64,000 nucleotides of DNA from Candidatus Omnitrophota bacterium (GCA_028712375.1 JAQTQG010000001.1:46126-110125); one strand, 5' to 3'; numbered from the stretch's first letter, positions 43,096-61,227 are shown. The notes: generated from the sequence alone by a model not told the origin. A program made the numbers and translations.

Positions 43096-43926
43096 ATGAT
43101 GGATAGTCATCTGCATGTTCAGGAAGATGGGGTTGATCTAAAGAAATATATCAGTATTTTGGTTAAAAGAAAAAAACTTATACTGGGCATTTTCCTTATT
43201 ACGATAGCTATTTCCGCCGTAGCCAGCTTTTTTATCCCTAAGGTTTATGAAATTACCTCTACAATCCAATTGGGGAACATAAACGGGCCTTTGATTAGTA
43301 AAGAAGAGTCAAAAGAGATAATTCTAAATCAAAACGCAATCTCGGATCTAATTAATAAATTAAATCTTAAGCTAGGAGTTGAGGGGCTTAAAAGAAGTAT
43401 TAATATCAGCAGTATAAATGGTACTAATTTATTAACGGTAAAAATAATCTATTCTGATCTGGCCGAAGCTTTTAAGATACATGATGTGCTTTTAGACCCG
43501 CTTATCGCGCAGGGTAAAAAAATCTATCAAGAGCGGATATTTCTTGTTAATGAAAGGCTGAAGGAATTAGATGCGGAAATAAGCAACTCCGAGCAAGATA
43601 TTAGCCGGACTCAGGCTTTAATTGCCGGGCTCCCTAATGCCAGTAATATTTCTCAATCCGATGTTTCCTTAAGAATAATCCTGCTGCAAAATACCCTGCC
43701 TAATTATGAAAATAATCTTACTTCTCTTAGAGACCAAAGAAATAACCTGAAATATTTATTAAGCAACGCCAGGGATTTTATGGTTTTTGATAAGCCCATT
43801 AAACCTGAAAATGCTATGGGGCCCGATAAAAAGCAGAAAATTATTACTGCCGGCGTGTTGAGCCTGGTATTTGGTATATTACTAGCTTTTTTCCTGGAAT
43901 ATTGGCAAAAAGATAAACAAAAATGA
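43096..43926 (+). CDS. Wzz/GumC-like polysaccharide chain-length determinant (PCP family)
   Basis: N-terminal TM helix after KKYISILVKRKKLILGIFLI, a long coiled-coil periplasmic region, a C-terminal TM helix; extended -10 tgcTATAAT upstream. Confidence 0.55.
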   Translation: MMDSHLHVQEDGVDLKKYISILVKRKKLILGIFLITIAISAVASFFIPKVYEITSTIQLGNINGPLISKEESKEIILNQNAISDLINKLNLKLGVEGLKRSINISSINGTNLLTVKIIYSDLAEAFKIHDVLLDPLIAQGKKIYQERIFLVNERLKELDAEISNSEQDISRTQALIAGLPNASNISQSDVSLRIILLQNTLPNYENNLTSLRDQRNNLKYLLSNARDFMVFDKPIKPENAMGPDKKQKIITAGVLSLVFGILLAFFLEYWQKDKQK

Positions 43927-44609
43927 AAAATTCCTGTTTAGCAATAATTCCGGCCCGCGGCGGTTCGAAGGGGCTGAAAAATAAGAATATAAAGAACTTA
44001 AATGGCAAGCCGTTAATTTATTACTCGATAAAGGAAGCGCAAAAAGCAAAGTGCATAAGCAAAATTATTGTTTCTACTGATTCCGAGAAGGTAAAACGAA
44101 TTGCTTTAAAATTCGGAGCGGAAGTGCCTTTCTTACGCCCGAAGAATCTATCTTCGGATAGAACTCCGATGTATCCGGTAAATAAACACGCCCTTGAATT
44201 ATTAGAAAAAAGGGGAGAAAGATTTAATATTGTGATAGTTTTGCAGCCGACATCCCCCCTAAGAAAAGCAGCGGATATCCAAAAGGCTGTCGCCAAGCTT
44301 AATAAAACAAAAGCGGATTCTGTGGTGAGCGTTTGTTTAGCTGAACACTCCCCATATTGGATGCGCGTAATAAAAAAGGGGAAAGTTTATCCTTTTGTTA
44401 AATCGCGCCAGTATTTACGCAGGCAGGATTTGCCAAAAGTGTACAGGCTGAACGGGGCTGTTTATGTAACCAGGGCAGAGGTATTGTTTAAACAGGGGGT
44501 GATTTTAGGAAAGAATACGCTGCCATTAGTTATGCCCCAGGATTCTTCTGTGGACATTGATACAGGATTGGATTTTAAGTTAGCGGAATTAATTTTGAAA
44601 AATAAATGA
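43923..44609 (+). CDS. CMP-nonulosonic acid synthetase (acylneuraminate cytidylyltransferase family, NeuA/PseF/LegF-like)
   Basis: AIIPARGGSKGLKNKNIKNLNGKPLIYYSI is the canonical CMP-NeuAc synthetase N-terminus. Confidence 0.85.
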   Translation: MKNSCLAIIPARGGSKGLKNKNIKNLNGKPLIYYSIKEAQKAKCISKIIVSTDSEKVKRIALKFGAEVPFLRPKNLSSDRTPMYPVNKHALELLEKRGERFNIVIVLQPTSPLRKAADIQKAVAKLNKTKADSVVSVCLAEHSPYWMRVIKKGKVYPFVKSRQYLRRQDLPKVYRLNGAVYVTRAEVLFKQGVILGKNTLPLVMPQDSSVDIDTGLDFKLAELILKNK

Positions 44610-45655
44610 ATAAAATACAGATAGGAACAAGGTGGGTAGGTAATGATCTGCCAGTATTTGTTATCGCTGAAGCCGGGGTAAACCATAACGGAGATATCAA
44701 ATTAGCAGAAAAACTTATCCGGGAAAGCAAGAAATGCGGGGCAGATTGTGTTAAATTCCAGTCTTTTAAAGCTGACCGGGTTGTTTCTTTAGATGCTCCG
44801 AAAGCGCAATATCAGCTGCAGACGACAGATCCAAGGGAAACTCAATATGAGATGTTGCGTAAATTAGAGTTAAAAGAAAATGATTATTCGAAGCTTATTT
44901 CAGTTTGCCGCGATGAAAATGTATTATTTCTTTCTACCCCTTATAATTCTGAGGATGTTGATTTTCTTTACGCTTTAGATGTTCCTGCTTATAAAATAGC
45001 ATCCGGCCAGTTAATTGAACTGCCTTTTTTAGAATATGTTGCTAAAAAAGGAAAACCGGTTATTATTTCAACTGGTATGGGGACATTGGATGAGGTGAAG
45101 ACTGCAGTAGAGACTATTCGCAATACGGGGAATAACCAAATAGTTATTTTGCAGTGCACTACGCATTATCCCTCTTGTATTGAAGATGCCAACCTCAGGG
45201 CTATGTCCACGATGAGAGAAGCATGCCGCGCTTTAGTTGGCTATTCGGATCATACATCCGGAGATTTATCTGCTATTGCAGCAGTTGCTTTGGGAGCTTG
45301 TATAATAGAAAAACATTTTACATTAGATAAGGATCTCGAAGGGCCTGATCAATCGTGTTCTGCTAATCCTGAAGAATTCATGCGATTGGTTAAAAATATT
45401 CGTTTTGTAGAGCAGTCCTTGGGGTCAAGCCAGAAATATCCTACAAAGCTAGAAAGTGTAAATGCCAGAATGATGCGAAGAAGTATCTTTGCTAAACAGG
45501 CTATTCCGGCGGGGGCTATTTTATCTTTGGAGAATATTTCGTTTAAGAGGCCGGCAATAGGGATTTTAGGGACTCAGAGTGGTTGCGTATTTGGAAAACG
45601 AGCTAAACATAACATATCAGAAAACACGCTTATAACTATGGATTTAATTGAATGA
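44606..45655 (+). CDS. nonulosonic acid synthase (NeuB/PseI/LegI family)
   Basis: VFVIAEAGVNHNGDIKLAEKLI...; 349 aa with a C-terminal SAF-like domain. Confidence 0.85.
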   Translation: MNKIQIGTRWVGNDLPVFVIAEAGVNHNGDIKLAEKLIRESKKCGADCVKFQSFKADRVVSLDAPKAQYQLQTTDPRETQYEMLRKLELKENDYSKLISVCRDENVLFLSTPYNSEDVDFLYALDVPAYKIASGQLIELPFLEYVAKKGKPVIISTGMGTLDEVKTAVETIRNTGNNQIVILQCTTHYPSCIEDANLRAMSTMREACRALVGYSDHTSGDLSAIAAVALGACIIEKHFTLDKDLEGPDQSCSANPEEFMRLVKNIRFVEQSLGSSQKYPTKLESVNARMMRRSIFAKQAIPAGAILSLENISFKRPAIGILGTQSGCVFGKRAKHNISENTLITMDLIE

Positions 45656-46260
45656 AAAAAGCTGCGATATTTGGTGCGGGAGGGCACGCCAGGGTAGTTG
45701 CTGCTGCTTTAAAAGCGAATGGAATTCCGATATTTGGCTTTTTTGATGATAATTTTTCTGCGGAGGAGAAAATTCAGGGGGCGCCAGTTTTAGGTAAGTT
45801 TAACGATATCCTTTCTTTTAAAAAAGATATCGCTGACGTTTATTTAGGAATTGGTGATAACTTGAGAAGGCGTTGTTCATATGTTTTTTTGGAAGAGAAC
45901 AGATTTAGTATGCCTCGCCTAGTGCATCCAAAAGCTTACGTTGAAGATAATGCTAGTATTAAAGATGGAACAATCATTTGTATTGGAGCTGCAGTCTGTG
46001 CAGAAGTAAAAATAGGGCAAGGTGTAGTTATTAATACTGGTAGTTCTGTAGACCATGAGTCTTCTCTGGCTGATTTTGTTCATCTGGCTCCTGGAGCAGT
46101 TATTGCCGGAAGAGTGAGTGTTGGCTCTAATTCTTTTGTGGGAATTAATGTTTCGGTTAAAGATAAAGTGAAAATAGGCAGCAACGTTATTATTGGGGCA
46201 GGAGCAATTGTTCTTAAGGATGTTCCCGATAATACAACGGTCGTTGGAATATGGAAATAG
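45652..46260 (+). CDS. hexapeptide-repeat sugar N-acetyltransferase (NeuD/PglD family)
   Basis: AAIFGAGGHARVV N-terminal Rossmann-like motif and a left-handed beta-helix repeat region. Confidence 0.75.
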   Translation: MKKAAIFGAGGHARVVAAALKANGIPIFGFFDDNFSAEEKIQGAPVLGKFNDILSFKKDIADVYLGIGDNLRRRCSYVFLEENRFSMPRLVHPKAYVEDNASIKDGTIICIGAAVCAEVKIGQGVVINTGSSVDHESSLADFVHLAPGAVIAGRVSVGSNSFVGINVSVKDKVKIGSNVIIGAGAIVLKDVPDNTTVVGIWK

Positions 46261-47129
46261 ATAAAAGCAAGGTTTTCGTTTCGACTAGGGCATTTTGCAA
46301 TAATAACCTGGCAGGCGTTTTAGAATTGTGTCAAAAACAGGGTATTAGCAATCTTGAATTGGGGTCTAATTTAAGATTCGTAAATAAAAATATTTCGGAT
46401 TTGATGTATTTCAAGAATTGCTTTAAAGGCAAATTATTAATTCATAATTATTTTCCGTCTCCCCAAAAGGCATTTGTAATCAATTTGGCTTCTAGCGATA
46501 AAGGTATCTTAAAAAAAAGTAAACAGCATTGTCTAAGAGCGATAAAATTGTGTGCCAAGTTGAAAGTTCCTTTTTACAGCGTGCACTCCGGATTTTGTTT
46601 TGAAGCTGCTCCCAATAATCTTGGTAAAAAGTTAACAAGATTGCCGCGTATTTCTTTGGCAGAAGCGGAAGATATATTTGTTAATAGCCTGAGGGAATTA
46701 TCGCATTTGTCCGCATCATACGGGGTGGAAATTTTAATCGAAAATAATGTAGTGACTTTAGGCAATACTATTAATTCTAAAAATCTTCTTATGTTGGGAG
46801 TGAGCTCTGAGGATTTGCTGCGTATTTTAAAAAAAGCAGGTGCGGATAATATCTCTATCCTGCTTGATATTGCGCATCTTAAGGTATCTGCTAACAGCCT
46901 GGGATTTTCTCCCGTATCTTTTATAAAAGATATTAAGCGGCATGTCCGGGCGTTGCACCTTAGTGATAATGATGGAAAAAATGATCAACACCTTAGTTTT
47001 TCGGATAAATCCTGGTTTGTTCCTTTTTTAGGTAATTTTAAAGGTAAGTACTTGATTATTGAATGTGATAATTTACAGATAAAAGATATATTCAAATGCC
47101 GTGATGTTATTTGCGGCGCGCTACAATAA
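46251..47129 (+). CDS. sugar-phosphate isomerase/epimerase (xylose-isomerase-like TIM barrel)
   Basis: 292 aa with AP-endonuclease-2/TIM-barrel-like composition; weak assignment. Confidence 0.45.
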   Translation: MEIDKSKVFVSTRAFCNNNLAGVLELCQKQGISNLELGSNLRFVNKNISDLMYFKNCFKGKLLIHNYFPSPQKAFVINLASSDKGILKKSKQHCLRAIKLCAKLKVPFYSVHSGFCFEAAPNNLGKKLTRLPRISLAEAEDIFVNSLRELSHLSASYGVEILIENNVVTLGNTINSKNLLMLGVSSEDLLRILKKAGADNISILLDIAHLKVSANSLGFSPVSFIKDIKRHVRALHLSDNDGKNDQHLSFSDKSWFVPFLGNFKGKYLIIECDNLQIKDIFKCRDVICGALQ

Positions 47130-47148
47130 AATTAAACTTAGGGCTAAA

Positions 47149-48597
47149 ATGGCGATAGATATACGTAAGCTAAAGACAGACAGCGAATCAAGTATAAAAG
47201 AGGCTATGAGGGTTATTGATAAAAATGGCCTTGGACTTGTTTTAGTTACTGATAAACGCAAGAAATTCTGTGGTTTAGCAACGGATGGCGACGTGAGAAG
47301 AGCGGTGTTGGCTGGGTGTGGATGGAAAACTAGAATTAAAGATGTTATGCAAAAAAATCCCGTGGTGGTAAGAGCGGGTACGGATAAAGAAGAGATATTG
47401 AAGTTAATGAGTTCGAAGATCAGGCATATTCCGATTCTTGATGAAAATAACAAAATAATTAATCTTGCTTCATATGCGCATTTTTTCCATATCCCGGTTA
47501 CCGAACCTGAAATAGAGGGCAAAGAGTTGGAGTATGTCACGGATTGCATCGCTACAGGCTGGGTCTCTTCCGGTGGTAAATATGTTAAATTATTTGAAGA
47601 TAATTTTAGTGAATTTTGCCAAACTAAGTATAGTATTGCTGTTTCTAATGGAACGGCTGCTCTGCACTTGGCTTTAGCGGTTTTGGGCGTTGGAAAAGGG
47701 GATGAAGTTATTGTGCCAACTTTAAGTTTTATTGCTACGGCAAATGCGGTTAGTTATACCGGAGCAAAGCCGGTATTTGTAGATGTTCAAAAAGACACTT
47801 GGAATATAGATCCGGAAAAAATTAAAGATGCGATAACCTCTCGAACTAAAGCAATTATCCCTGTGCATCTTTATGGACATCCAGCGGATATGGATCCGAT
47901 TCTTTCTCTTGCGAAAAAGCATAAGCTTTATGTTATTGAGGATGCGGCGGAAGCTCATGGAGCTGAATACAAAGGCAAAAAGGTCGGTTCTTTCCCGGAT
48001 GTGGGTTGTTTCAGTTTTTTTGGCAATAAAATTATTACTACCGGTGAAGGAGGAATGATCACCACGAATAATCCGGATATCGCGCAAAAAGCAATAATAT
48101 TGCGTGATCACGGAATGTCTAGAGAAAAGAAATATTGGCATCCGTATATCGGATTTAATTACCGCCTTACGAATATTCAGGCGGCCATCGGAGTAGCGCA
48201 ACTAGAGAAAATAGCAAGCTTGATAAAAAGAAAAAGAGAGAATGCGCGCTTGTATTCTTGTCTTCTTAAAGGCGTAAAAGGTATCGTTCTGCCTGTAGAG
48301 AAAAAATGGGCAAAGAGTGTTTATTGGATGTATTCCATACTTGTTGAAGATAGTTATGGTATTTCAAGGGATCTTTTAATGCGCAAACTGTCTGAGCGCG
48401 GTATTGATACTAGGCCGGTATTTTATCCTATTCATATTATGCCTCCTTATGCGGATAATAAGAAATTTCCGATTGCAGAAGAGATATCTAGAAAAGGTAT
48501 AAGTCTCCCTTCAGCAGTGTCATTAAAAGAAGATGAAATTAGGAGAATCGCGGCTGCGATTAAAGAAATCGGAAGGGGCAGGGGGAAGCGATGTTAA
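47149..48597 (+). CDS. CBS-domain pair fused to a DegT/DnrJ/EryC1-family sugar aminotransferase
   Basis: N-terminal ~120 aa CBS pair (…VLVTDKRKKFCGLATDGDVRRAV…IPILDENNKIINL…), then the aminotransferase with PLP-Lys context FSFFGNKIITTGEGG; an alternative start at 47101 is possible. Confidence 0.8.
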   Translation: MAIDIRKLKTDSESSIKEAMRVIDKNGLGLVLVTDKRKKFCGLATDGDVRRAVLAGCGWKTRIKDVMQKNPVVVRAGTDKEEILKLMSSKIRHIPILDENNKIINLASYAHFFHIPVTEPEIEGKELEYVTDCIATGWVSSGGKYVKLFEDNFSEFCQTKYSIAVSNGTAALHLALAVLGVGKGDEVIVPTLSFIATANAVSYTGAKPVFVDVQKDTWNIDPEKIKDAITSRTKAIIPVHLYGHPADMDPILSLAKKHKLYVIEDAAEAHGAEYKGKKVGSFPDVGCFSFFGNKIITTGEGGMITTNNPDIAQKAIILRDHGMSREKKYWHPYIGFNYRLTNIQAAIGVAQLEKIASLIKRKRENARLYSCLLKGVKGIVLPVEKKWAKSVYWMYSILVEDSYGISRDLLMRKLSERGIDTRPVFYPIHIMPPYADNKKFPIAEEISRKGISLPSAVSLKEDEIRRIAAAIKEIGRGRGKRC

Positions 48598-50093
48598 AGG
48601 GGGCGTTAAAAATATTGGGTGGTAATATTATTTCGTACCCGTTTAATCTTGCTAAAGTATTTATTATCGCTAAGGTCTTGGATCCGGGAACATATGGGGT
48701 ATTTAGTTTGTTTACCGTTATTCTTTCTTATAGTCTTTGGTGCGAATTCGGTATACTTAGCGGCATGGATAAAATAATTCCTTATTTAAGAGGTAAATCT
48801 GATTATACGGAATTAAATAACATAAGAAACGCGGCGTTTACATGGTTTATTTTTGTGTATTTATTTTTAATAATAGTTTTATTTTTTGTAACTTTTATCC
48901 CAGGTTTTTCATTTTCCAAAGAAATTAATGTTGGTTTACGATTATTATCTGTTGTCATTTTTTTATCTGTGGTGCAGAATTTTTTCTTGACTATTGCGAG
49001 AGCGGAGAAACGATTCGGTACCATCGGCATGACAAATGCAGTATTTGCAGTTTCATCGGTTTTATTATTGCTCTTGTTTTTTAAAGCTCCCTTGGATCGG
49101 CTGCATGCTACTTTAATATCATTTATTCTGGCGTACGCAATTTCACTTTTGTTCTGTATGCTGCGTTCAGAATTTAACTTTAAAATGAATTTAAGTGTAA
49201 GCAAGTTAAAGAAAATTATTCATATGGGTTTTCCTATAGTAGTTATCGGCATTAGCTTTACGATATTTACTAGTATTGACCGTTGGGTAATTGTGAAGTA
49301 TTTAGGCAAATCTCAGCTGGGTTATTATGCTTTTGGTATGTCTATTGCCAATTTCTTGTTCGGGCTAATGGCTGTATTTGCTTATGTCTCATTTCCATTG
49401 GTGCGGGAAAGATTTGCTAAAGAGAGTGATTTAACTAAATTTAATCCATATATGCATAACACAATGTTGTTAATGAGTTATATAATTGCTTTTTCCAGCA
49501 GTATTTTAATAGCAACCCTTCCCTTTGTTTATAAAAACATTTTTTATAAATATGCGTCAGGCTTGGAATCAGCTTATTTTTTAATAATCGGTATTTTTTT
49601 TATTTCTATGGCAACAATTCCCGGAAATTTCATAGTAGCAATAAATAAGCAAAAAGTTATTATATTCGCTCAGGCTATCGGAATTGCTGTTTTATTAATC
49701 GCAGATTACCTTGTGGTAAAGCTTACAGGTAGTATAACCGGAGTCTCTGCCGTGACAGCAGGGACTTTTTTCATTTACAGCGTTTTTGTTATTTCTTGTT
49801 CATTCAAGTATGTGGGGGATACTTACGCTAAATCATTTAAATTGATATTGAAGTTACTTTTACCTTTTGCTTTAGGTTTATTGATTGTGTTTTTGTTAAG
49901 GGTAGTATTTAATTCTTTAAGTGCTCCGGAATTATTTGTAACTCTGTTTAAAGTTGTTACTTTGGTTTTTTTCTACCCGTTATTATTTTATTTACAAAAT
50001 AAAGACATGGGAATTTTCAGAAAAACTAAGATTCTGCTAGGCAATAATGTTCAACCAGTTACGGAAAATTATACGCCGTCTGGTTTATTCTAA
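48591..50093 (+). CDS. Wzx-like polysaccharide flippase (MOP superfamily)
   Basis: 500 aa, about 12-14 TM helices, N-terminal segment typical of polysaccharide-biosynthesis flippases. Confidence 0.7.
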   Translation: MLKGALKILGGNIISYPFNLAKVFIIAKVLDPGTYGVFSLFTVILSYSLWCEFGILSGMDKIIPYLRGKSDYTELNNIRNAAFTWFIFVYLFLIIVLFFVTFIPGFSFSKEINVGLRLLSVVIFLSVVQNFFLTIARAEKRFGTIGMTNAVFAVSSVLLLLLFFKAPLDRLHATLISFILAYAISLLFCMLRSEFNFKMNLSVSKLKKIIHMGFPIVVIGISFTIFTSIDRWVIVKYLGKSQLGYYAFGMSIANFLFGLMAVFAYVSFPLVRERFAKESDLTKFNPYMHNTMLLMSYIIAFSSSILIATLPFVYKNIFYKYASGLESAYFLIIGIFFISMATIPGNFIVAINKQKVIIFAQAIGIAVLLIADYLVVKLTGSITGVSAVTAGTFFIYSVFVISCSFKYVGDTYAKSFKLILKLLLPFALGLLIVFLLRVVFNSLSAPELFVTLFKVVTLVFFYPLLFYLQNKDMGIFRKTKILLGNNVQPVTENYTPSGLF

Positions 50094-50236
50094 CGGTATG
50101 TATCTTTAAACAGATTGATTGTGCCGCAATGCTATAAAGTGACTGTGAAGTAGCTTATGCGGTAAATTCAGCCAAATTTAGTTTATAAGCCGGTTTTAAC
50201 CAATTGTAGAAATTATTAAGCTAAAGGGGTTAATAA

Positions 50237-51406
50237 GTGCAAAATAGAGAGTCAGTGCTTAGTAAAGCCAAGCATGAACAGCAATCTATGGATTCCATCA
50301 AGTTTTTAACGAAAAATAAACTTGATGATTATTTTCTTGCAGAGGTTATTGACCAGCTTAAGCATGATAAGGATGATAAGCGCTATGCCCAGGAAGTGGG
50401 TATACTCAATGAGATTATATGTAATTTAGAGGATAATGTGGAATTTTCCGGAGATAAAAGCAGGTTTGTAGTTTTACCAAACGAATATAATTTTTTATCC
50501 CAGAATAATAAGTTTCTTTGGGCTGAATATCTTATTTTTAGATATAAATTCAGAATTTATCCTAAGTTTGGGCGGTTGCCTGATTTTCCAATACACTTGT
50601 TAATTGAGCCGGTATCTTATTGTAACATTAAATGCTCTATGTGTTTCCAGACGGATGCTGATTTTACAAAACCCCCGTATATGGGTAACATGGATATTGG
50701 GTTATTCAGAAGCATTATAGATGAGGCTGTAGAAAATAAGTGCAGAGCTCTAACTTTGGCTTCTCGCGGTGAACCAACACTGCACCCGAATTTTGCTGAA
50801 GTTATAAACTATGCTAGGGGTAAATTTTTTGATTTTAAATTGAATACAAACGCTGTCAGTTTAGATGAGAAAAAATGTCATCAAATATTGCAAGGCGAGG
50901 TTACTGAGCTTGTTTTTTCAGTGAATGCAGTCAACAAGAATGAATATCAACAAGTTTGTAAGATTGATAAATTCGAGCAAGTAGTTAATAATATAAAACA
51001 GTTTCATAGAATTAGAAATAAGGATTACCCTGAATCGAAATGTAAGACACGGGTGAATGGGGTAGAGTATGGCCCGGATTTTAGTGAAGAGCAATTTTTA
51101 AACTTTTGGGATAAGATTGTTGATAATGTTGTGTGTTTAAAAGTTTTTAAGCGTTGGGATACTTATAACAATATTCTTTCTTCTGTTAGCTCTCCCTGTG
51201 CTTTATTGTGGCAACGAATTTATGTTTGGTTTGATGGTACTGCTAGCCCCTGTGACCGTGATTATAAAAGTTTATTGAAAATAGGCAACATCCGGGAATC
51301 TTCCGTTAAGAGCATCTGGAATGGTGAAAAAATGAACCTATTACGTAAGAAGCATAAAGAAGGCTTCCGCAGTTGTTTTTTTCCCTGCGATCGTTGCGAG
51401 GACTAA
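50237..51406 (+). CDS. radical SAM enzyme with ~120-aa N-terminal extension and Cys-rich C-terminus (possible SPASM/twitch)
   Basis: CNIKCSMC (CxxxCxxC) at about aa 129-136; C-terminal cysteines C..PCDRD...SCFFPCDRCED. Confidence 0.7.
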   Translation: MQNRESVLSKAKHEQQSMDSIKFLTKNKLDDYFLAEVIDQLKHDKDDKRYAQEVGILNEIICNLEDNVEFSGDKSRFVVLPNEYNFLSQNNKFLWAEYLIFRYKFRIYPKFGRLPDFPIHLLIEPVSYCNIKCSMCFQTDADFTKPPYMGNMDIGLFRSIIDEAVENKCRALTLASRGEPTLHPNFAEVINYARGKFFDFKLNTNAVSLDEKKCHQILQGEVTELVFSVNAVNKNEYQQVCKIDKFEQVVNNIKQFHRIRNKDYPESKCKTRVNGVEYGPDFSEEQFLNFWDKIVDNVVCLKVFKRWDTYNNILSSVSSPCALLWQRIYVWFDGTASPCDRDYKSLLKIGNIRESSVKSIWNGEKMNLLRKKHKEGFRSCFFPCDRCED

Positions 51407-51408
51407 TT

Positions 51409-52413
51409 ATGCGGGAATATAAAATTGGATTTATAGGTTATAAAGGACAGGCTGGCCGCTTAATCAAGATATTTGAAAATATTAAACGGTGTAAGATTTC
51501 TTGTTTTTATCATCCTGAAAAACATATTGATGTTAAGCAGATTGCTGTTTGTAACCATCCGGACTTGTTTGCAACCAGGAAGTTATCTGACCTGTATTCA
51601 TGCGCCGGTATTGTAATATGTGCTCCGAATTATATGCATTTTTCTTATCTTAAAGAACTCATTAAGGATTACAGGGGGTACATCTTTTGTGAAAAGCCTC
51701 CTGTGTCTAATTTTCGGGAGTTAGCATCTTTACGGAAGTTTTCAACTGCAGATAAAAAGAGAGTTTATTTTAATTTTAATCAGCGTTTTGGTTTTCTTGC
51801 GGAGCTGCTTAAGGTGTTTCCTAAAAGATATAATCTTGGAGAACCAATCAGGGCAGCTATTGTTAGCGGTCATGGGCTTGGTTTTCAGGAATCCTATAAA
51901 TCATCATGGCGGGCTAAAAAAGAGCTCCATGAGGGTGGGGTGTTAGAGACTTTAGGGATTCATTTTATTGATTTATTGAGTTTTACCTTTGGTGCATCGA
52001 AAAACATTTTTTGTTTCGCAGAAAATCTCTCTCCTTATGGTGATGCAATTGATACTTGTCATTTTTCTTGTATTTTTGGCAGTAAATTATATTTTAATCT
52101 AACCTGTAGCTATTGTATGCCTTTTACACATAGTATAAAGATAGATTATACTAATGGGTCAATTGATATTGATGATAAGGAAATTAAAGTTTTTACACCT
52201 AGGGAGGTGTTTGACAAAAACGGAAGATTTGTCCGCCCTCCGTTGCGTTATAGGAAGCTTATAGATTATAATAAGTTATATTCTGAATCTTTAGAAGTTT
52301 CGTGCCAGTATTTTATGGATTGCCTTTGTAAAAGACGTGAGATTAATTTGGAGTATTTTAAGCAAAGTATTCTTTCCAATGAAATTTATCTGAAGGCTTT
52401 GGAAAATGTATAA
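51409..52413 (+). CDS. Gfo/Idh/MocA-family NAD(P)-dependent oxidoreductase
   Basis: N-terminal Rossmann IGFIGYKGQAGR...ICAPNYMHF...EKP; starts 3 nt after the radical SAM stop. Confidence 0.7.
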   Translation: MREYKIGFIGYKGQAGRLIKIFENIKRCKISCFYHPEKHIDVKQIAVCNHPDLFATRKLSDLYSCAGIVICAPNYMHFSYLKELIKDYRGYIFCEKPPVSNFRELASLRKFSTADKKRVYFNFNQRFGFLAELLKVFPKRYNLGEPIRAAIVSGHGLGFQESYKSSWRAKKELHEGGVLETLGIHFIDLLSFTFGASKNIFCFAENLSPYGDAIDTCHFSCIFGSKLYFNLTCSYCMPFTHSIKIDYTNGSIDIDDKEIKVFTPREVFDKNGRFVRPPLRYRKLIDYNKLYSESLEVSCQYFMDCLCKRREINLEYFKQSILSNEIYLKALENV

Positions 52414-52449
52414 AATCCGGTTTTAGAATTAAAAAAAGGAGAATAGTAA

Positions 52450-53505
52450 ATGCATAAAAAAGCACTGATTACAGGTATCACCGGCCAGGACGGGTCTTAC
52501 CTTGCGCAATTTTTACTTAACAAAGGTTATAAAGTATATGGTACTTACCGCCGGCTTTCTTCTCCTAATTTTTGGAGGCTGCAGTATCTTAATATATTTG
52601 ATAAGGTGGAATTGATACCGGCTGAGCTTTCCGACAGCGCTTCGTTGTTCGAAGCAATCAGGATTTCAAGCCCGGATGAGATATATAATCTTGCTGCGCA
52701 AAGTTTTGTCGGCGCATCTTTTGAACAGCCGATCAACACGACAGATGTTTCCGGAGTGGCGACTACCAGGATCCTGGAGATAATCCGCCAGATAAATCCC
52801 AAGATAAAATTTTATCAGGCTTCTACCAGCGAGCTGTACGGCGGAATCTATGACCATAAACAAAACGAAGAAGTCCCTTTTCATCCCCGCAGCCCTTATG
52901 CGGCTGCCAAGTTATACAGCTACTGGACAACCAGGATATACCGGGATGCTTATGGGTTGTTCGCTGCTAACGGGATTCTTTTTAACCATGAGTCTCCGCT
53001 CAGGGGGTTGGAATTCGTAACCCGTAAGATTACTAATGCGGTTGCCAAGATCCACCTCGGGTTTAGTAAAAATATAACCCTGGGCAATATTAATGCGCAA
53101 AGAGACTGGGGCTTTGCCCTGGATTATGTAGAGTCAATGTGGATGATTTTACAGCAAGATAAGCCGCAGGATTTTGTAATTGCCACCGGGCAGATGCATT
53201 CGATAGAAGAATTGCTGGATATTGCTTTTAAATTGGTTAACCTGGATTATAAAAAGCATATCGTAATAGACAAGAAATTTTTTAGGCCGCTGGAAGTTCA
53301 TAAACTCTGCGGTGATTCTTCGAAAGCCAAAAAGGTCCTGGGCTGGGTTCCTAAAGTTGCATTTAAGCAATTAGTAGAAATTATGGTTAAAGAGGATATT
53401 AAGCGTTGGGAAGGATGGCAAAAAGGAGAGCGGTTTCCCTGGGATGCAATAAATTACCCGGATGAAAGAAAAACATTATCCCGCTATATTAGTATAGATG
53501 ATTGA
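52450..53505 (+). CDS. gmd: GDP-mannose 4,6-dehydratase
   Basis: ALITGITGQDGSYLA, catalytic ASTSELYG (Thr and Glu) and YAAAKLY (Tyr, Lys); 351 aa. Confidence 0.9.
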   Translation: MHKKALITGITGQDGSYLAQFLLNKGYKVYGTYRRLSSPNFWRLQYLNIFDKVELIPAELSDSASLFEAIRISSPDEIYNLAAQSFVGASFEQPINTTDVSGVATTRILEIIRQINPKIKFYQASTSELYGGIYDHKQNEEVPFHPRSPYAAAKLYSYWTTRIYRDAYGLFAANGILFNHESPLRGLEFVTRKITNAVAKIHLGFSKNITLGNINAQRDWGFALDYVESMWMILQQDKPQDFVIATGQMHSIEELLDIAFKLVNLDYKKHIVIDKKFFRPLEVHKLCGDSSKAKKVLGWVPKVAFKQLVEIMVKEDIKRWEGWQKGERFPWDAINYPDERKTLSRYISIDD

Positions 53506-53902
53506 AAAAATTATTCATGATAATAAACTGATAGCAATAATCCTGCGTAAAGATTTTCATAAAGAAGGGATTTCTTTTCTTACGGATAATGATGCGCAGT
53601 TGCAGTTGGGGTATTTAAGCCATCCGGCAGGCCACGAGGTAAAACCGCACACTCATAAACCGGTGATCAGGAATACTTTGGGAACCCACGAAGTGCTCTT
53701 TATCAAAAACGGAGTAATCGAAATTGATTTTTATTTAGCTGATAAAACTTATCTGGAAAGCAGGAAGTTGTTGGCGGGTGATGTAATTTTATTGGCAGAG
53801 GGCGGGCATGGGATAAAAGTTTTAGAGGCAGCTACGATTGTTGAAGTAAAGAATGGGCCTTATATTGAGGATAAAGAAAGATTTCAGAGGAAGAAGGATT
53901 AA
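53498..53902 (+). CDS. small cupin, FdtA/WxcM-like candidate NDP-4-keto-6-deoxyhexose 3,4-ketoisomerase
   Basis: 134 aa; His pair HEVKPHTH; cupin beta-sandwich pattern; lies between a dehydratase and an aminotransferase, as fdtA does. Confidence 0.5.
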   Translation: MIEKIIHDNKLIAIILRKDFHKEGISFLTDNDAQLQLGYLSHPAGHEVKPHTHKPVIRNTLGTHEVLFIKNGVIEIDFYLADKTYLESRKLLAGDVILLAEGGHGIKVLEAATIVEVKNGPYIEDKERFQRKKD

Positions 53903-53906
53903 TTAT

Positions 53907-55025
53907 ATGATACCGGTAAATCAACCATTATTAAACGGTCGCGAAAAAGAATTATTAGCTGAATGTATTAATTCCGGGTGGATATCTTCTGATGGCCCTT
54001 TTGTCGGTAAATTTGAGCAGTTGTTTTCTGCATATATTGGAGTAGATCATGGAGTCGCGGTTTGTAATGGTACGGTAGCATTAGAGACTGCTTTATTTGC
54101 GGCGGGAATTAACAAGGGGGATGAAGTGATCCTGCCGGCGTTTACCATTATTTCTTGCGTTTTGGCGGTTTTGCGTTTGGGGGCTGTGCCAGTTTTAGTG
54201 GACGTAGAACCGGATACCTGGAATATGGATGTGGCGCAGATAGAGTCAAAGATTACTTCCAAAACTAAAGGGATTATGCCCGTGCATATTTACGGGCATC
54301 CGGTGGACATGGATCCGCTTATGCAGATAGCCAAAAAATATAAATTGATTGTTATCGAGGATGCGGCAGAAGCCCATGGGGCAGAGTATAAGCATCAGAA
54401 GTGCGGCAGTATCGGCCATATCGCTGCCTTTTCTTTTTACGCGAATAAAATTATTACTACCGGTGAGGGAGGGATGGTGCTCACTAAAAATAAAGAGATG
54501 GCAGAGCGGGCAAGGAGTTATCGTAATCTTTGTTTTCGCCCCGAAAAAAGATTCTACCACACCGAATTGGGCAATAATTACCGCATGACAAATCTGCAGG
54601 CGGCAGTCGGAGTAGCGCAAATTGAGCGTATTGAGGAGTTTGTGGGAATTAAAAGAAATTTAGGGGAGTATTATAAAGAAAAATTTTCATTAATTAACGG
54701 CATAAAGACGCAGGTTGAGAAACCTTGGGCAAAGACGGTTTATTGGATGTATTGTATAGAGCTTGCTGATTCTTTAGGCGTAAATGCTGATGACTTAATG
54801 GTTGCTCTTAAGCAAAAGGGTATCGAAGCCCGGCCTTTCTTTTTGGGAATGCATCAGCAGCCGGTTTTGCAGCAACTGGGCTTATTTGCCGGAGAAAAGT
54901 ATCCGGTAACAGAAAGAATTTCCCGGCAGGGGCTATATTTACCATCCGGGCTTGCTCTTAAAGAGGCTCAAATAGATGAAGTAGTTTCGGCAGTCAAAGT
55001 TTTTGTGCTCAAGCAGCGCGGATAA
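53907..55025 (+). CDS. DegT/DnrJ/EryC1-family NDP-sugar aminotransferase
   Basis: FSFYANKIITTGEGG PLP-lysine context; about 65% identical over long stretches to the CBS-fused aminotransferase at 47149-48597. Confidence 0.85.
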   Translation: MIPVNQPLLNGREKELLAECINSGWISSDGPFVGKFEQLFSAYIGVDHGVAVCNGTVALETALFAAGINKGDEVILPAFTIISCVLAVLRLGAVPVLVDVEPDTWNMDVAQIESKITSKTKGIMPVHIYGHPVDMDPLMQIAKKYKLIVIEDAAEAHGAEYKHQKCGSIGHIAAFSFYANKIITTGEGGMVLTKNKEMAERARSYRNLCFRPEKRFYHTELGNNYRMTNLQAAVGVAQIERIEEFVGIKRNLGEYYKEKFSLINGIKTQVEKPWAKTVYWMYCIELADSLGVNADDLMVALKQKGIEARPFFLGMHQQPVLQQLGLFAGEKYPVTERISRQGLYLPSGLALKEAQIDEVVSAVKVFVLKQRG

Positions 55026-59658: not shown

Positions 59659-61227
59659 ATGGATAAGCAGCAATTTGAATTTTCAGTCAAAATTTTTAAC
59701 CAACTGGGAGAATCCCGGCTGAAGTCAGGCAGGACTTTGCGGGAAGAGCTATGCTTGGGGCAGGAAATATCCTTTTGGGATATTTTAGCTCCTTACTTAG
59801 TGCTTTACCGTTTTCCTCTGTTATTTCTTAAAAATAATCAAAACTTTACGGTAAAAGAATGGTGGAAGTATTATCTGCGGCCTTTTAGGGGGCGGGTTGC
59901 GCAATTTATGGATTCGGCGATTTTTTATTTCTGCAGGAATGTTAAAGATTGTTTACGTTGGCCGGCAGGCAGGCAACCAGTATTGTTCCTGGCTTTTACT
60001 CAAACATTTTATCGTGATGTTTTGCATCCGGTAACGGAATTCTTTATTAAGAAAGACAGCAGACAGGTTGTGGTGCTTGAGCATAACAGAAGTCTTCCGG
60101 ACAATTTTAGCCCGGATAGCAAAATAGAATTTCAATCACTTTGCGGGCATTGGGGAATTGAAGCCAATAATTTAGGTAAAAATTTGTTAGAGCGGCTCAA
60201 GGCTCTGCAAAAATCCCTATTGAATAAAAATCAGCTAATGGTATTAACGCAAAGTGTTTCCGGGGATTTTAGCAAGTTTGCTTTACGCCAAGAGTTTTAT
60301 TGGATTTTTTGGCGTGAACTAAGGCGTTTAATTCCTATGTACGCTGTGGCTAAGCATATTTTGGAAGAACATAAGCCTGCTTTGATTGTTTCTGCGGATG
60401 ATGCTGACCAGCGTCATAGAATTTTTTCTTTGCTTGCCCGGAAAAAAGGAATTCCGGCTTTACTTGTACAGCAGGGCCTTTGTCATAAAGATTATCCGGA
60501 GTGGTTATTTTTTTCTCATACTATGGTCGCTGCTATGGGGCAGGCTTCGGCAGATGATATGATTTCGCAAGGTGTTCCTCCTGAAAAAATTATGGTTACC
60601 GGCAATCCTGGATTCGACCAGTTTAGCTTTATTGAGCCTGAGGCTGTTGCGTTTTTGCGTAAACGGCTAGGGGTGTTGGATAATGAAAAGATGGTATTGT
60701 TTGCCTGCCAGCCATATTATGTTGGAGTTTTTAATACCCCCCAGATACGCAGCCAAATGATTGAGGCGATTGCTCAGGCAGCGGGTTCTTTAAAGAACAT
60801 TAAACTTGTGGTTAAGCCGCATCCGGCTGATAATGTGCGTCAGCTTAAAAAGTTATTGGATAAATCGCCGCAGGCAGTTATGGTAGACCGTAAGATGGAT
60901 ATTTCGCCTTTGATTAAAGCCTGTGACGTTCTAGTCACTTTTTTTTCAACTGCAGCTTTACAGGCGCTTTATGCCGGTAAGCCGGTTATCAATGTAGAAT
61001 TCCCGGATAGTTCCGGCAATAATATTTATTCTGAAAGCGGAGCAACCCGGGTAGCTCGTTCGACTGGTGAAATTATTAAGTGTCTCCAGGATTTAATTCA
61101 ATACAGGGTTGAGGATCCTGGATACGAAACTAACCGTCAGCTTTTTTTACGTAAAATGCTGCATTTTCCCGATGGGTTAGCTAGCGAGCGTGTTTTAAAG
61201 GTTGTTGCAGAAATGTTATCATCTTAA
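59659..61227 (+). CDS. hypothetical polysaccharide-biosynthesis protein (possible GT-B-like; VKPHP motif reminiscent of glycerophosphotransferase/capsule-synthesis enzymes)
   Basis: 522-aa ORF, no TM segments, alpha/beta composition; weak assignment. Confidence 0.3.
   Translation: MDKQQFEFSVKIFNQLGESRLKSGRTLREELCLGQEISFWDILAPYLVLYRFPLLFLKNNQNFTVKEWWKYYLRPFRGRVAQFMDSAIFYFCRNVKDCLRWPAGRQPVLFLAFTQTFYRDVLHPVTEFFIKKDSRQVVVLEHNRSLPDNFSPDSKIEFQSLCGHWGIEANNLGKNLLERLKALQKSLLNKNQLMVLTQSVSGDFSKFALRQEFYWIFWRELRRLIPMYAVAKHILEEHKPALIVSADDADQRHRIFSLLARKKGIPALLVQQGLCHKDYPEWLFFSHTMVAAMGQASADDMISQGVPPEKIMVTGNPGFDQFSFIEPEAVAFLRKRLGVLDNEKMVLFACQPYYVGVFNTPQIRSQMIEAIAQAAGSLKNIKLVVKPHPADNVRQLKKLLDKSPQAVMVDRKMDISPLIKACDVLVTFFSTAALQALYAGKPVINVEFPDSSGNNIYSESGATRVARSTGEIIKCLQDLIQYRVEDPGYETNRQLFLRKMLHFPDGLASERVLKVVAEMLSS

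What the first reader, a model, noticed from the sequence alone, without database searches (positions are those of the whole stretch)
50237..52413. Radical SAM enzyme with a long N-terminal extension and Cys-rich C-terminus, paired with a Gfo/Idh/MocA oxidoreductase inside the glycan locus
CNIKCSMC lies at about residue 129 after a ~120-aa non-rSAM N-terminal domain. The C-terminus carries extra cysteines (C..PCDRD...SCFFPCDRCED), consistent with an auxiliary Fe-S (SPASM or twitch) domain. The gene immediately precedes a Rossmann-fold Gfo/Idh/MocA oxidoreductase, with a 2-nt gap. Radical SAM enzymes in sugar pathways perform dehydrogenation, epimerisation, C-methylation or deamination (BtrN, DesII and GenK types). 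Such a pair in a Wzx/Wzy locus is uncommon and its substrate is unknown.
Basis: partly seen in the sequence, partly recalled or inferred. Interest (0 to 1): 0.65.

Follow-up and report, generated by a model that had tools for sequence, protein, structure and literature searches.

The report
BtrN-like radical SAM/oxidoreductase sugar-tailoring pair
A radical SAM enzyme with a single extra iron-sulfur cluster and its neighbouring NAD(P)-type oxidoreductase form a conserved, uncharacterised two-gene unit that sits mostly beside sialic-acid-like sugar genes in many uncultured bacteria and archaea, and probably remodels one position of a surface sugar.

Summary
ORF 50237-51406 encodes a radical SAM protein with the cluster motif at C129/C133/C136, a conserved N-terminal helical domain of about 100 aa, and a Cys-bearing C-terminus. 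A Gfo/Idh/MocA gene follows 2 nt downstream.

Three points need correcting.
1. The C-terminal domain is a BtrN-type "twitch" domain. It has four invariant Cys, implying one auxiliary cluster, and lacks the 7-Cys SPASM motif. BtrN is the best solved match by both sequence and fold.
2. The pair is not uncommon. Of 98 evaluable non-identical family members, 83 have the Gfo gene directly adjacent. The two proteins co-vary (r = 0.81). Carriers include Omnitrophota, CPR bacteria, SAR11, Prochlorococcus and Thaumarchaeota.
3. The recurrent neighbours are NeuB-type synthases and CMP-transferases (ulosonic/nonulosonic acid pathways), rather than NDP-4-keto-hexose genes.

Where Gfo is missing, an SDR or a DegT aminotransferase usually takes its place. 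This fits a keto-sugar intermediate. The best reading is a BtrN-like radical oxidation of a sugar carbinol, with the ketone then handled by the oxidoreductase. The substrate and the net chemistry remain inferred. The N-terminal domain has no detectable relatives outside this family. No paper in the searched library links radical SAM enzymes to these sugars.

The parts
50237..51406 (+). Radical SAM / twitch-domain enzyme gene (389 aa from GTG; the conserved protein begins at about M18, ATG 50288)
   Evidence: ORF. Pfam Radical_SAM and SPASM hits. Identical NCBI protein and more than 1200 homologs. AF2 model with pLDDT 88.9.
50223..50229 (+). Shine-Dalgarno-like AAAGGGG, 7 nt upstream of the GTG start
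   Evidence: Read directly from the sequence. Its function is inferred.
50288..50590 (+). Family-specific N-terminal four-helix domain (residues 18-118; invariant E83, W95, Y98, R102; motif NEYNFL..W..YLIFRYKF)
   Evidence: Alignment. Helices 31-44, 51-70, 81-89 and 92-111 in the AF2 models. A profile search of 1.84 billion representatives found only 85 hits: fragments and radical SAM proteins of family-like length, plus two odd architectures (P0162, P0130). No PDB fold match (best E 1.2). No Pfam or NCBIfam hit.
50621..50644 (+). CX3CX2C motif (C129, C133, C136) for the SAM-binding [4Fe-4S] cluster
   Evidence: Invariant in 36 of 36 homologs. Lies within the Pfam Radical_SAM match 124-259.
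51197..51397 (+). Twitch-type auxiliary-cluster domain (residues 321-387; invariant C321, G334, C339, C384, C387; pattern CX12GX4C ... CX2C, then end of protein)
   Evidence: Pfam SPASM hit. Invariant columns. All four Cys and the Gly align column for column with the BtrN twitch domain. The same four Cys occur in cousins that lack the N-domain.
51398..51402 (+). GAGGA Shine-Dalgarno-like site for the oxidoreductase, inside the 3' end of the rSAM gene
   Evidence: Read from the sequence. Translational coupling is inferred.
51409..52413 (+). Gfo/Idh/MocA NAD(P)-dependent oxidoreductase, the conserved partner of the rSAM enzyme
   Evidence: Pfam GFO_IDH_MocA and the C3/C domains. Invariant G10, H77, E95-K96 (EKP motif) and H185 in 27 partners. 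Adjacent in 83 of 98 evaluable loci. Co-varies with the rSAM protein, r = 0.81.
43923..48597 (+). Context: nonulosonic-acid cassette. It comprises a PseF-like CMP-transferase (43923-44609), a NeuB synthase (44606-45655), a NeuD-family N-acetyltransferase (45652-46260), an AP_endonuc_2 TIM-barrel protein (46251-47129) and a CBS-fused LegC-family aminotransferase (47101-48597).
   Evidence: Pfam. NCBIfam: NeuB 415.4 against 399.65; NeuD family 210.8 against 160.8; PseF 193 against 205.7; LegC family 400 against 420. The same gene types recur next to the pair in other genomes.
59659..61227 (+). Context: GT-B glycosyltransferase of the surface-carbohydrate / Capsule_synth / polysialyltransferase-like type. 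A distantly related domain is fused to the rSAM enzyme in one homolog.
   Evidence: Pfam. NCBIfam partial matches to surf_polysacc and BFO_1060. The N-terminal 450 aa of fusion protein P0162 (= L014 ORF) match this ORF at 1e-6.

Best explanation
The two genes encode a sugar-tailoring module of a surface-glycan pathway, most likely one that makes a nonulosonic or other ulosonic acid.

The first enzyme is a BtrN-like twitch radical SAM protein.
- Its CX3CX2C cluster cleaves SAM to give a 5'-deoxyadenosyl radical.
- That radical abstracts the hydrogen from a carbinol carbon (H-C-OH) of the sugar.
- The fully Cys-ligated auxiliary [4Fe-4S] cluster accepts the second electron.
- The product is a keto-sugar.

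The translationally coupled Gfo/Idh/MocA enzyme then uses NAD(P)H to reduce that ketone stereospecifically. The net result is inversion or redox tailoring of an otherwise unactivated centre.

In a minority of genomes an SDR or a PLP aminotransferase replaces Gfo. The aminotransferase would give an amino sugar, as in the BtrN-BtrS logic.

The family-specific N-terminal helical domain is proposed to help bind the substrate, which may be nucleotide-linked.

Shown: domain architecture, cluster ligands, nearest relatives, conservation of the pair, and its neighbourhoods. Inferred: Fe-S content, SAM cleavage, the substrate, the order of the two enzymes, and the net reaction.
For: Architecture:
- The radical SAM core and the SPASM-family C-terminus both score above Pfam cutoffs.
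- Only seven Cys are invariant: C129, C133 and C136, plus C321, C339, C384 and C387.

Nearest relatives:
- In a profile search of the PDB, BtrN is the top hit (E 3.5e-15). Both the core and the twitch domain align, and all four auxiliary-cluster Cys are in register.
- Foldseek of the AF2 model (pLDDT 88.9) also ranks BtrN first (E 1.1e-12, TM 0.74 over BtrN).
- According to a review, BtrN's auxiliary cluster is ligated by four Cys and is the proposed electron acceptor in a two-electron alcohol oxidation. MoaA is redox-neutral and has an open Fe site (PMC9012708).

The pairing:
- Gfo is adjacent on the same strand in 83 of 98 evaluable non-identical members: 77 downstream and 6 upstream.
- Pairwise identities of the two proteins correlate at r = 0.81 over 73 pairs. 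None of 2000 Mantel permutations reached this value.
- In two genomes the pair stands alone among housekeeping genes, so it behaves as a self-contained unit.
- The Gfo partners keep the catalytic EKP lysine and the catalytic histidine.

Substitutions for Gfo:
- Where Gfo is absent, the adjacent gene is an SDR in 5 loci or a DegT aminotransferase in 2 loci. Both enzyme types make or consume keto-sugars.

Pathway context:
- NeuB occurs in 21 and CTP_transf_3 in 22 of the 29 loci that have at least 5 kb on both sides.
- The window itself carries a NeuB / NeuD / CMP-transferase / LegC-type cassette 0.1-6 kb upstream.
- One homolog is fused to a GT-B glycosyltransferase-like domain.

Precedent:
- ElaA, a Gfo/Idh/MocA enzyme, is modelled from crystal structures to oxidise C8 of CMP-legionaminic acid, and the SDR ElaC to reduce it to the 8-epimer (PMC13656337).
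Against: - No biochemical data exist for any member.
- An NAD-dependent Gfo enzyme could in principle oxidise an alcohol itself. It is therefore unclear why a radical oxidant would be needed for a simple epimerisation.
- The order of the two enzymes is not established.
- Identity to BtrN is only about 18%, and BtrN lacks the N-terminal domain.
- NeuB and the CMP-transferase are absent within 10 kb in roughly a quarter of well-flanked loci. The link to ulosonic acids is therefore strong but not universal.
- The SDR and DegT substitutions are few (7 loci). They are also compatible with Gfo or SDR acting first.
Confidence: 0.45

Rival explanations
1. Radical deoxygenation or deamination. The rSAM enzyme abstracts H from a carbinol carbon and eliminates the neighbouring OH or NH2 group, as described for AprD4 and DesII. 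This gives a deoxy-keto sugar. The Gfo enzyme then reduces the ketone, as AprD3 does. The net result is removal of a hydroxyl or amino group from the (ulosonic) sugar.
For: - An obligatory reductase partner is exactly what a dehydratase-type reaction needs. That would explain the near-invariant pairing better than a plain dehydrogenation does.
- DesII appears among the sequence and fold matches (8.5e-8; ranks 7-14).
- DesII also carries a long N-terminal extension before its cluster motif: the NCBIfam DesII model aligns from its position 110.
- The Gfo partners have 'YHP', with no acidic residue, at the end of strand beta-2. From general knowledge of Rossmann folds, this is weakly suggestive of NADPH use, and hence of a reductase role.
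- The AprD4/AprD3 analogy rests on my own knowledge. The papers found only name these enzymes.
Against: - The DesII similarity is confined to the radical SAM core. The whole-protein score is 40 bits against a cutoff of 450.
- The four-Cys auxiliary cluster aligned with BtrN is the hallmark of enzymes that carry out net two-electron oxidations.
- No AprD4 sequence was available for comparison.
Confidence: 0.25
2. Gfo acts first. The Gfo/Idh/MocA enzyme oxidises a hydroxyl of the (CMP-)sugar, as ElaA does. The rSAM enzyme then works on the keto-intermediate, for example by epimerising or rearranging an adjacent carbon, or by forming a C-C bond.
For: - ElaA, a Gfo-type enzyme, is the proposed oxidase on CMP-legionaminic acid (PMC13656337).
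- The best single-sequence PDB hit of the window's Gfo is YjhC (6.5e-8). From my own knowledge, YjhC is a sialic-acid oxidoreductase. WbpB is also among the hits.
- In 6 loci the Gfo gene lies upstream of the rSAM gene.
- SDRs are frequent in the same loci: 13 of 29.
Against: - In 77 of 83 pairs the rSAM gene comes first and the genes overlap or abut.
- The two loci where a DegT aminotransferase replaces Gfo are hard to explain if Gfo supplies the ketone.
- No known twitch rSAM enzyme is documented here as requiring a keto substrate.
Confidence: 0.15
3. The rSAM protein is a peptide (RiPP) or cofactor maturase of the SPASM family. On this view it only happens to sit in a glycan locus.
For: - The best NCBIfam partial hits are maturases: tungsten-cofactor rSAM maturase at 4.6e-26, and a putative metalloenzyme maturase at 2.2e-21. 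Both cover only the radical SAM core.
- Most characterised SPASM proteins modify peptides.
Against: - All those hits lie far below their family cutoffs (for example 92 bits against 380) and cover only residues 117-263.
- The N-terminal domain is all-helical and has no fold match. It shows no sign of a PqqD/RRE-type peptide-recognition domain, which from my knowledge is a winged helix.
- The intergenic region 50094-50236 holds no plausible precursor ORF.
- The family's neighbourhoods are consistently glycan genes.
- The 7-Cys SPASM motif is absent.
Confidence: 0.03

Closest known systems
BtrN (2-deoxy-scyllo-inosamine dehydrogenase, butirosin pathway; PDB 4M7T/4M7S)
   Same: - A radical SAM core followed by a twitch domain.
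- The four auxiliary-cluster Cys and the conserved Gly align in register.
- It is the best solved match by sequence (E 3.5e-15) and by fold (E 1.1e-12, TM 0.74 over BtrN).
- It acts on a secondary alcohol of a carbohydrate-like ring.
   Different: - Identity is only 16-18%.
- BtrN (about 250 aa) has no N-terminal helical domain.
- No aminoglycoside genes lie nearby, and the context is NeuB/CMP-transferase glycan loci.
- This family is obligately paired with a Gfo/Idh/MocA enzyme, which is not a feature of BtrN (own knowledge).
ElaA/ElaC (and EpaA/EpaB, AciE): NAD(P)-dependent oxidise-then-reduce C8 epimerisation of CMP-nonulosonic acids in Acinetobacter
   Same: - A Gfo/Idh/MocA oxidoreductase (ElaA) works on a CMP-nonulosonic acid via a keto-intermediate that a second enzyme processes (PMC13656337; PMC12053666).
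- The locus type is the same: NeuB-type synthase plus CMP-transferase.
   Different: - Those systems contain no radical SAM enzyme.
- Their partner is an SDR or an aldo-keto reductase.
DesII (TDP-4-amino-4,6-dideoxy-D-glucose deaminase) and AprD4/AprD3 (radical diol dehydratase plus reductase)
   Same: - Radical SAM chemistry at a sugar carbinol carbon yields a ketone.
- DesII also has a long N-terminal extension and appears among the sequence and fold hits.
- AprD4/AprD3 is a radical SAM plus NAD(P)H-reductase pair (own knowledge).
   Different: - The DesII match covers only the core: 40 bits against a 450-bit cutoff.
- DesII shows no match to the twitch region here.
- AprD4 and AprD3 were not compared, because no sequences were held.
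Twitch rSAM cousins without the N-domain, found in legionaminic/pseudaminic-like loci (e.g. Halochromatium roseum DSM 18859, Pseudoalteromonas sp. MSK9-3, Sporofaciens musculi)
   Same: - 28-35% identity over the core and twitch domains.
- The same seven Cys.
- They sit directly beside NeuB, DegT, CMP-transferase and dehydratase genes.
   Different: - They lack the N-terminal helical domain and have no adjacent Gfo gene.
- They are also uncharacterised.

Membership tests
Radical SAM superfamily (PF04055) | CX3CX2C motif that ligates the SAM-binding [4Fe-4S] cluster | tested here: met
   C129, C133 and C136 are invariant in 36 of 36 sequences.
Radical SAM superfamily (PF04055) | Profile match above the curated cutoff | tested here: met
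   51.1 bits against a cutoff of 29.5, E 2.3e-13, residues 124-259.
Radical SAM superfamily (PF04055) | Reductive cleavage of SAM to 5'-deoxyadenosine | not testable with these tools
   Requires anaerobic biochemistry.
SPASM domain proper (two auxiliary clusters) | Pfam PF13186 match above cutoff | tested here: met
   46.8 bits against 21.5, residues 321-387. The Pfam model also covers twitch domains.
SPASM domain proper (two auxiliary clusters) | Seven-Cys motif CX9-15GX4C ... CX2CX5CX3C ... C (own knowledge of the motif) | tested here: not met
   Only C321, C339, C384 and C387 are invariant. The protein ends 2 residues after the CX2C. Cousins with longer tails add no further Cys.
Twitch-domain radical SAM enzymes (BtrN type) | Truncated SPASM domain with ligands for a single auxiliary cluster (definition in PMC9012708) | tested here: met
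   The pattern is CX12GX4C ... CX2C. All four Cys and the Gly align with the BtrN twitch domain.
Twitch-domain radical SAM enzymes (BtrN type) | Fold similarity to a solved twitch enzyme | tested here: met
   BtrN 4M7T is the top Foldseek hit: E 1.1e-12, TM 0.74 normalised to BtrN.
Twitch-domain radical SAM enzymes (BtrN type) | Physical presence of a second [4Fe-4S] cluster | not testable with these tools
   Requires Fe/S quantification and Mossbauer or EPR spectroscopy.
BtrN orthologs (DOIA dehydrogenase) | Close sequence relationship and an aminoglycoside (2-deoxystreptamine) gene context | tested here: not met
   Identity is 16-18%. An extra N-domain is present. The neighbours are NeuB, CMP-transferase, Wzx and Wzy.
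DesII (TIGR04426) | Score above the equivalog cutoff | tested here: not met
   40.1 bits against a cutoff of 450; core only.
Spiro-SPASM protein (TIGR04321) | Score above the subfamily cutoff | tested here: not met
   67.6 bits against 250. The match does span the core and the C-terminal domain: residues 117-388 against model positions 229-503.
RiPP-maturing SPASM enzymes | N-terminal peptide-recognition (RRE/PqqD-like) domain and an adjacent precursor peptide | tested here: not met
   The N-domain is a four-helix unit with no PDB fold match and no Pfam hit. No candidate peptide ORF lies in 50094-50236.
B12-dependent radical SAM methyltransferases (GenK type) | N-terminal B12-binding domain (PF02310) | tested here: not met
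   No B12-binding hit. Separate B12-rSAM genes do flank the pair in some other genomes.
Gfo/Idh/MocA oxidoreductases (the partner, 51409-52413) | N-terminal Rossmann domain and C-terminal alpha/beta domain above Pfam cutoffs | tested here: met
   PF01408 scores 31 against 24. PF22725 scores 49.7 against 27. PF02894 scores 28.2 against 22.9.
Gfo/Idh/MocA oxidoreductases (the partner, 51409-52413) | Catalytic EKP lysine and conserved histidine | tested here: met
   E95, K96 and H185 are invariant in 27 partners and in 18 partners.
ElaA/ElaC-type CMP-nonulosonic acid epimerase system | Gfo-type oxidase plus SDR reductase acting on a CMP-nonulosonic acid | not tested
Only the family type (Gfo) and the locus type are shared. 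No SDR is adjacent in the window.

The most novel reading that the evidence does not exclude
The rSAM-Gfo pair may catalyse a radical modification of a CMP-activated or free ulosonic/nonulosonic acid that has not been described. Candidates are inversion or removal of a hydroxyl at an unactivated position, or a change to the carbon skeleton. The product would be an unknown sialic-acid-like sugar on the surfaces of very abundant uncultured microbes (SAR11, Prochlorococcus, marine Thaumarchaeota, CPR bacteria, Omnitrophota). The family-specific N-terminal domain would be a new substrate-binding module.
Probability: 0.3. Interest if true: 0.75.

Novelty: new variant of a known kind. Interest (0 to 1): 0.55.

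Why it matters
Twitch radical SAM enzymes that act on carbohydrates are known from only a handful of antibiotic pathways. This family would extend that chemistry to cell-surface glycans.

It is also very widespread. It occurs as a mobile two-gene unit in lineages that dominate the ocean and groundwater, usually beside sialic-acid-like sugar genes. Identifying its product would define a new tailoring step, and probably a new sugar, in nonulosonic/ulosonic acid biology. Such sugars shape phage recognition, grazing and host interactions.

The work also gives enzymologists a well-defined target:
- a compact enzyme;
- a clear partner;
- candidate substrates;
- cultured organisms that carry cousin enzymes.

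Tried and rejected
- Peptide or cofactor maturase reading: rejected. The maturase hits cover only the core and lie far below their cutoffs. No RRE-like fold was found. No precursor ORF was found. The context is glycan genes.
- DesII, viperin, MoaA, NirJ and PqqE membership: all far below their NCBIfam cutoffs.
- Full SPASM domain with two auxiliary clusters: rejected on the Cys count.
- N-terminal domain identity. A profile search of 1.84 billion representative proteins returned only 85 hits: fragments and radical SAM proteins of family-like length, plus two odd architectures, a GT-B fusion and a probable chimera. Foldseek against the PDB found nothing.
- Phage carriage: no relative above 26% identity in the viral contigs.
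- Literature: four searches combining radical SAM with nonulosonic, legionaminic or pseudaminic acid, O-antigen, capsule or twitch found no paper linking them. The library holds open-access papers only.
- Rfam and tRNA scans of the window found nothing.
- A profile search with the Gfo partners gave only generic sugar and inositol oxidoreductases, which does not discriminate between substrates.
Full report
**Observation**

The ORF 50237..51406 (+) encodes 389 aa from a GTG start. The identical protein is deposited as 'radical SAM protein [Candidatus Omnitrophica bacterium]'. Pfam places Radical_SAM at residues 124-259 (E 2.3e-13) and SPASM at residues 321-387 (E 3.7e-12), both above their gathering scores. 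The motif CNIKCSMC supplies C129, C133 and C136.

The stop codon is at 51404-51406, and the next gene starts at ATG 51409. A GAGGA lies 6 nt upstream of that ATG, inside the rSAM gene. The 2-nt gap is therefore real, and translational coupling is plausible. The downstream protein matches the Gfo/Idh/MocA N- and C-terminal domains.

The GTG start has an AAAGGGG 7 nt upstream. Residues 1-17 are unconserved and modelled with low confidence. The conserved protein therefore begins at about M18.

**Anatomy**

In an alignment of 36 homologs (43-61% identity to the window protein) only seven Cys are invariant. Three form the CX3CX2C motif. The other four are C321, C339, C384 and C387, arranged CX12GX4C ... 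CX2C, and the protein ends two residues later.

This is the cysteine complement of a twitch domain, with one auxiliary cluster. It is not the seven-Cys SPASM motif. The definitions are taken from PMC9012708.

A profile of the family searched against all PDB sequences finds BtrN first (E 3.5e-15). Both the core and the C-terminal domain align, and all four Cys and the Gly are in register. The AlphaFold2 model (pLDDT 88.9, pTM 0.88) also finds BtrN first with Foldseek (E 1.1e-12, TM 0.74 over BtrN). SuiB, DesII, SkfB, BlsE and anSME follow. No NCBIfam model reaches its cutoff. The best hits cover only the core, apart from the spiro-SPASM model, which spans the core and the C-terminal domain at 67.6 bits against a cutoff of 250.

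**The N-terminal domain**

Residues 18-118 form four helices. E83, W95, Y98 and R102 are invariant within the motif NEYNFL..W..YLIFRYKF.

A profile of this domain was searched against 1.84 billion representative proteins. It found only 85 hits, mostly fragments or radical SAM proteins of family-like length. Two exceptions stand out.
- P0162 is an 829-aa protein (identical to the L014 ORF). It has a 450-aa GT-B-like domain in front of the N-domain, the core and the twitch domain. That extra domain weakly matches the window's own glycosyltransferase at 59659-61227.
- P0130 switches into an aldo-keto reductase C-terminus part-way through the rSAM core. It is probably a chimera.

The isolated domain has no significant fold match in the PDB (best E 1.2). 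I saw no sign that it is a peptide-recognition element.

**The pair is conserved**

I read neighbourhoods from three sources:
- contigs that encode listed homologs;
- a scan of one genome per species;
- a metagenome scan.

I labelled the ORFs with phmmer, using Pfam-annotated neighbours as queries.

Among 102 non-identical members that carry the N-domain, 98 could be evaluated. In 83 of them a Gfo/Idh/MocA gene is directly adjacent on the same strand: 77 downstream and 6 upstream.

Pairwise identities of the rSAM proteins and of their Gfo partners correlate at r = 0.81 over 73 pairs. None of 2000 Mantel permutations reached that value. The partners keep the catalytic EKP lysine and the conserved histidine.

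Carriers include Omnitrophota, Paceibacterota and other CPR bacteria, Elusimicrobia, Dehalococcoidales, Cyanobacteria including Prochlorococcus and Synechococcus single cells, SAR11, Flavobacteriales, Thaumarchaeota, Iainarchaeota and Methanosarcinales. All are MAGs or single-cell genomes. No close relative was found in viral contigs.

In a cyanobacterial MAG (L012) and an Omnitrophota MAG (L017) the pair sits alone among housekeeping genes. It therefore behaves as a self-contained unit.

It is, however, absent from the cultured organisms retrieved here.

**What it travels with**

In the 29 loci with at least 5 kb on both sides, the counts are as follows.

| Neighbour type | Loci (of 29) |
|---|---|
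| CTP_transf_3 (CMP-sugar synthetase type) | 22 |
| NeuB-family synthase | 21 |
| Capsule_synth-type GT | 13 |
| DegT aminotransferase | 13 |
| SDR | 13 |

Thaumarchaeal-type loci add a short NeuB, SIS_2, a KdsC-like phosphatase and two SDRs. CPR-type loci add B12-radical SAM genes and DUF4910.

The window has its own cassette immediately upstream:
- a PseF-like CMP-transferase;
- NeuB (415.4 bits against the 399.65 cutoff of TIGR03569);
- a NeuD-family acetyltransferase;
- an AP_endonuc_2 protein;
- a CBS-fused LegC-family aminotransferase;
- Wzx.

Downstream lie two Gmd paralogs, a cupin, a second LegC-like aminotransferase, methyltransferases, a NUDIX protein, glycosyltransferases and Wzy.

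The statistical association is thus with ulosonic/nonulosonic acid synthesis. It is not specifically with the GDP- or dTDP-4-keto-6-deoxyhexose genes.

More distant cousins (28-35% identity) lack the N-domain and an adjacent Gfo gene. They keep the same seven Cys and lie directly beside NeuB, DegT, CMP-transferase and dehydratase genes. Some are in cultured Halochromatium, Pseudoalteromonas and Sporofaciens.

**Mechanism**

What is shown is a BtrN-like architecture with a fully Cys-ligated auxiliary site, plus an obligatory NAD(P)-type oxidoreductase partner.

BtrN oxidises a ring secondary alcohol to a ketone. Its four-Cys auxiliary cluster is the proposed electron acceptor. MoaA, by contrast, is redox-neutral and has an open Fe site (PMC9012708).

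Where Gfo is missing, the adjacent gene is one of two types:
- an SDR (L015, L198 and L220 downstream; L179 and L244 upstream);
- a DegT aminotransferase (L024 downstream; L246 upstream).

Both enzyme classes handle keto-sugars. The DegT case parallels BtrN followed by an aminotransferase.

I therefore favour the following sequence:
1. radical H-abstraction at a carbinol carbon;
2. electron transfer to the auxiliary cluster;
3. release of a keto-sugar;
4. stereospecific reduction by the Gfo enzyme.

There is a precedent for keto-intermediate tailoring of CMP-nonulosonic acids by a Gfo-type enzyme. It is ElaA with ElaC (PMC13656337); EpaA/EpaB is related (PMC12053666).

The main rival is an elimination of the AprD4/DesII type followed by ketoreduction, giving net deoxygenation or deamination. 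It would explain more naturally why a reductase is always present. A second rival has the Gfo enzyme acting first. Sequence data alone cannot separate these.

**Comparison and novelty**

The enzyme works like BtrN but is not a BtrN ortholog. Identity is 16-18%, there is an extra domain, and the context and partner differ. It fails the DesII, GenK-type, full-SPASM and RiPP-maturase tests (see the membership table).

No paper in the searched open-access library connects radical SAM enzymes with nonulosonic acid pathways.

I rate it a new variant of a known kind: a twitch radical SAM carbohydrate oxidoreductase with a novel N-terminal domain, fixed in a two-gene module with a Gfo/Idh/MocA enzyme.

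**Limits**

- No member has been characterised.
- Model coordinates could not be inspected, so the position of the N-domain's invariant residues relative to the active site is unknown.
- ORF labelling in other loci relied on phmmer with a limited query set. Absences of NeuB or the CMP-transferase may therefore be under-called.
- Metagenomic loci are often short.

Noticed in passing
window 47101-48597: A LegC-family DegT aminotransferase carries an N-terminal tandem CBS domain (498 aa; CBS at about residues 25-125). CBS domains are usual on KpsF/KdsD isomerases and nucleotidyltransferases, not on sugar aminotransferases. A similar CBS-type hit recurs in a SAR11 locus (L023).
   Followed up: partly
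window 46251-47129; L008 7494-8333; L023 3659-4549: An AP_endonuc_2 (xylose-isomerase-like TIM barrel) gene recurs inside NeuB/CMP-transferase cassettes that also carry the rSAM-Gfo pair. It has no NCBIfam assignment, and its role in nonulosonic acid synthesis is unexplained.
   Followed up: partly
L006 6273-8288 and 12084-13523; L089 12176-13564; L014 7594-9150; L015 4279-5895: B12-binding radical SAM genes flank the rSAM-Gfo pair in several CPR, gammaproteobacterial and SAR11 loci. These glycan loci therefore encode two or three radical SAM enzymes, which suggests C-methylation of sugars.
   Followed up: no
L089 9255-9983; L090 5147-5944; L014 11181-12086: A small protein (242-265 aa) whose only Pfam hit is SPASM, with no radical SAM core, is encoded immediately upstream of the pair or nearby.
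   Followed up: no
L014 4074-6563 (= P0162, 829 aa): A natural fusion: a roughly 450-aa GT-B glycosyltransferase-like domain joined to the N-domain, the radical SAM core and the twitch domain. The GT-like part is a stand-alone protein in L086 (15266-16618) and weakly matches the window ORF 59659-61227.
   Followed up: partly
P0130 (275 aa, metagenomic): The N-domain and the start of the radical SAM core (through the CX3CX2C motif) run into the C-terminal half of an aldo-keto reductase. This is probably an assembly or gene-call chimera. It is noted because EpaA is a CMP-transferase/aldo-keto reductase fusion.
   Followed up: partly
L032, L033, L036, L038, L040, L062, L070, L081, L085, L086: A cousin family of twitch radical SAM proteins lacks the N-domain and has no Gfo neighbour. 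It sits directly next to NeuB, DegT, CMP-transferase and dehydratase genes, including in cultured Halochromatium roseum, Pseudoalteromonas sp. MSK9-3 and Sporofaciens musculi. A further clade in Aminicenantes shows fewer sugar-gene neighbours with the queries used.
   Followed up: partly
window 52450-53505 and 58668-59657; 58199-58642; 56994-58202: Two GDP-mannose 4,6-dehydratase paralogs both score just under the gmd equivalog cutoff (413 and 393 bits against 415). The same locus also holds a NUDIX hydrolase and a sugar C-methyltransferase (Methyltransf_13/14). This points to a branched, C-methylated 6-deoxyhexose in the same glycan.
   Followed up: no
window 46000-54000: GC content drops to 0.34-0.39 across the Wzx / rSAM / Gfo / Gmd segment, against 0.40-0.44 over most of the window (it falls again to 0.37 in the last 2 kb, around the Wzy gene). 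This is consistent with horizontally acquired serotype-specific genes.
   Followed up: no
L012 9848-11911; L017 9122-11137: In one cyanobacterial MAG and one Omnitrophota MAG the rSAM-Gfo pair is flanked by housekeeping genes (VKOR/DsbA, an FAD oxidoreductase, a ketopantoate-reductase-like gene, a Na+/H+ exchanger, MiaB-like, MiaA, HflX). No glycan genes lie within 5-10 kb.
   Followed up: partly
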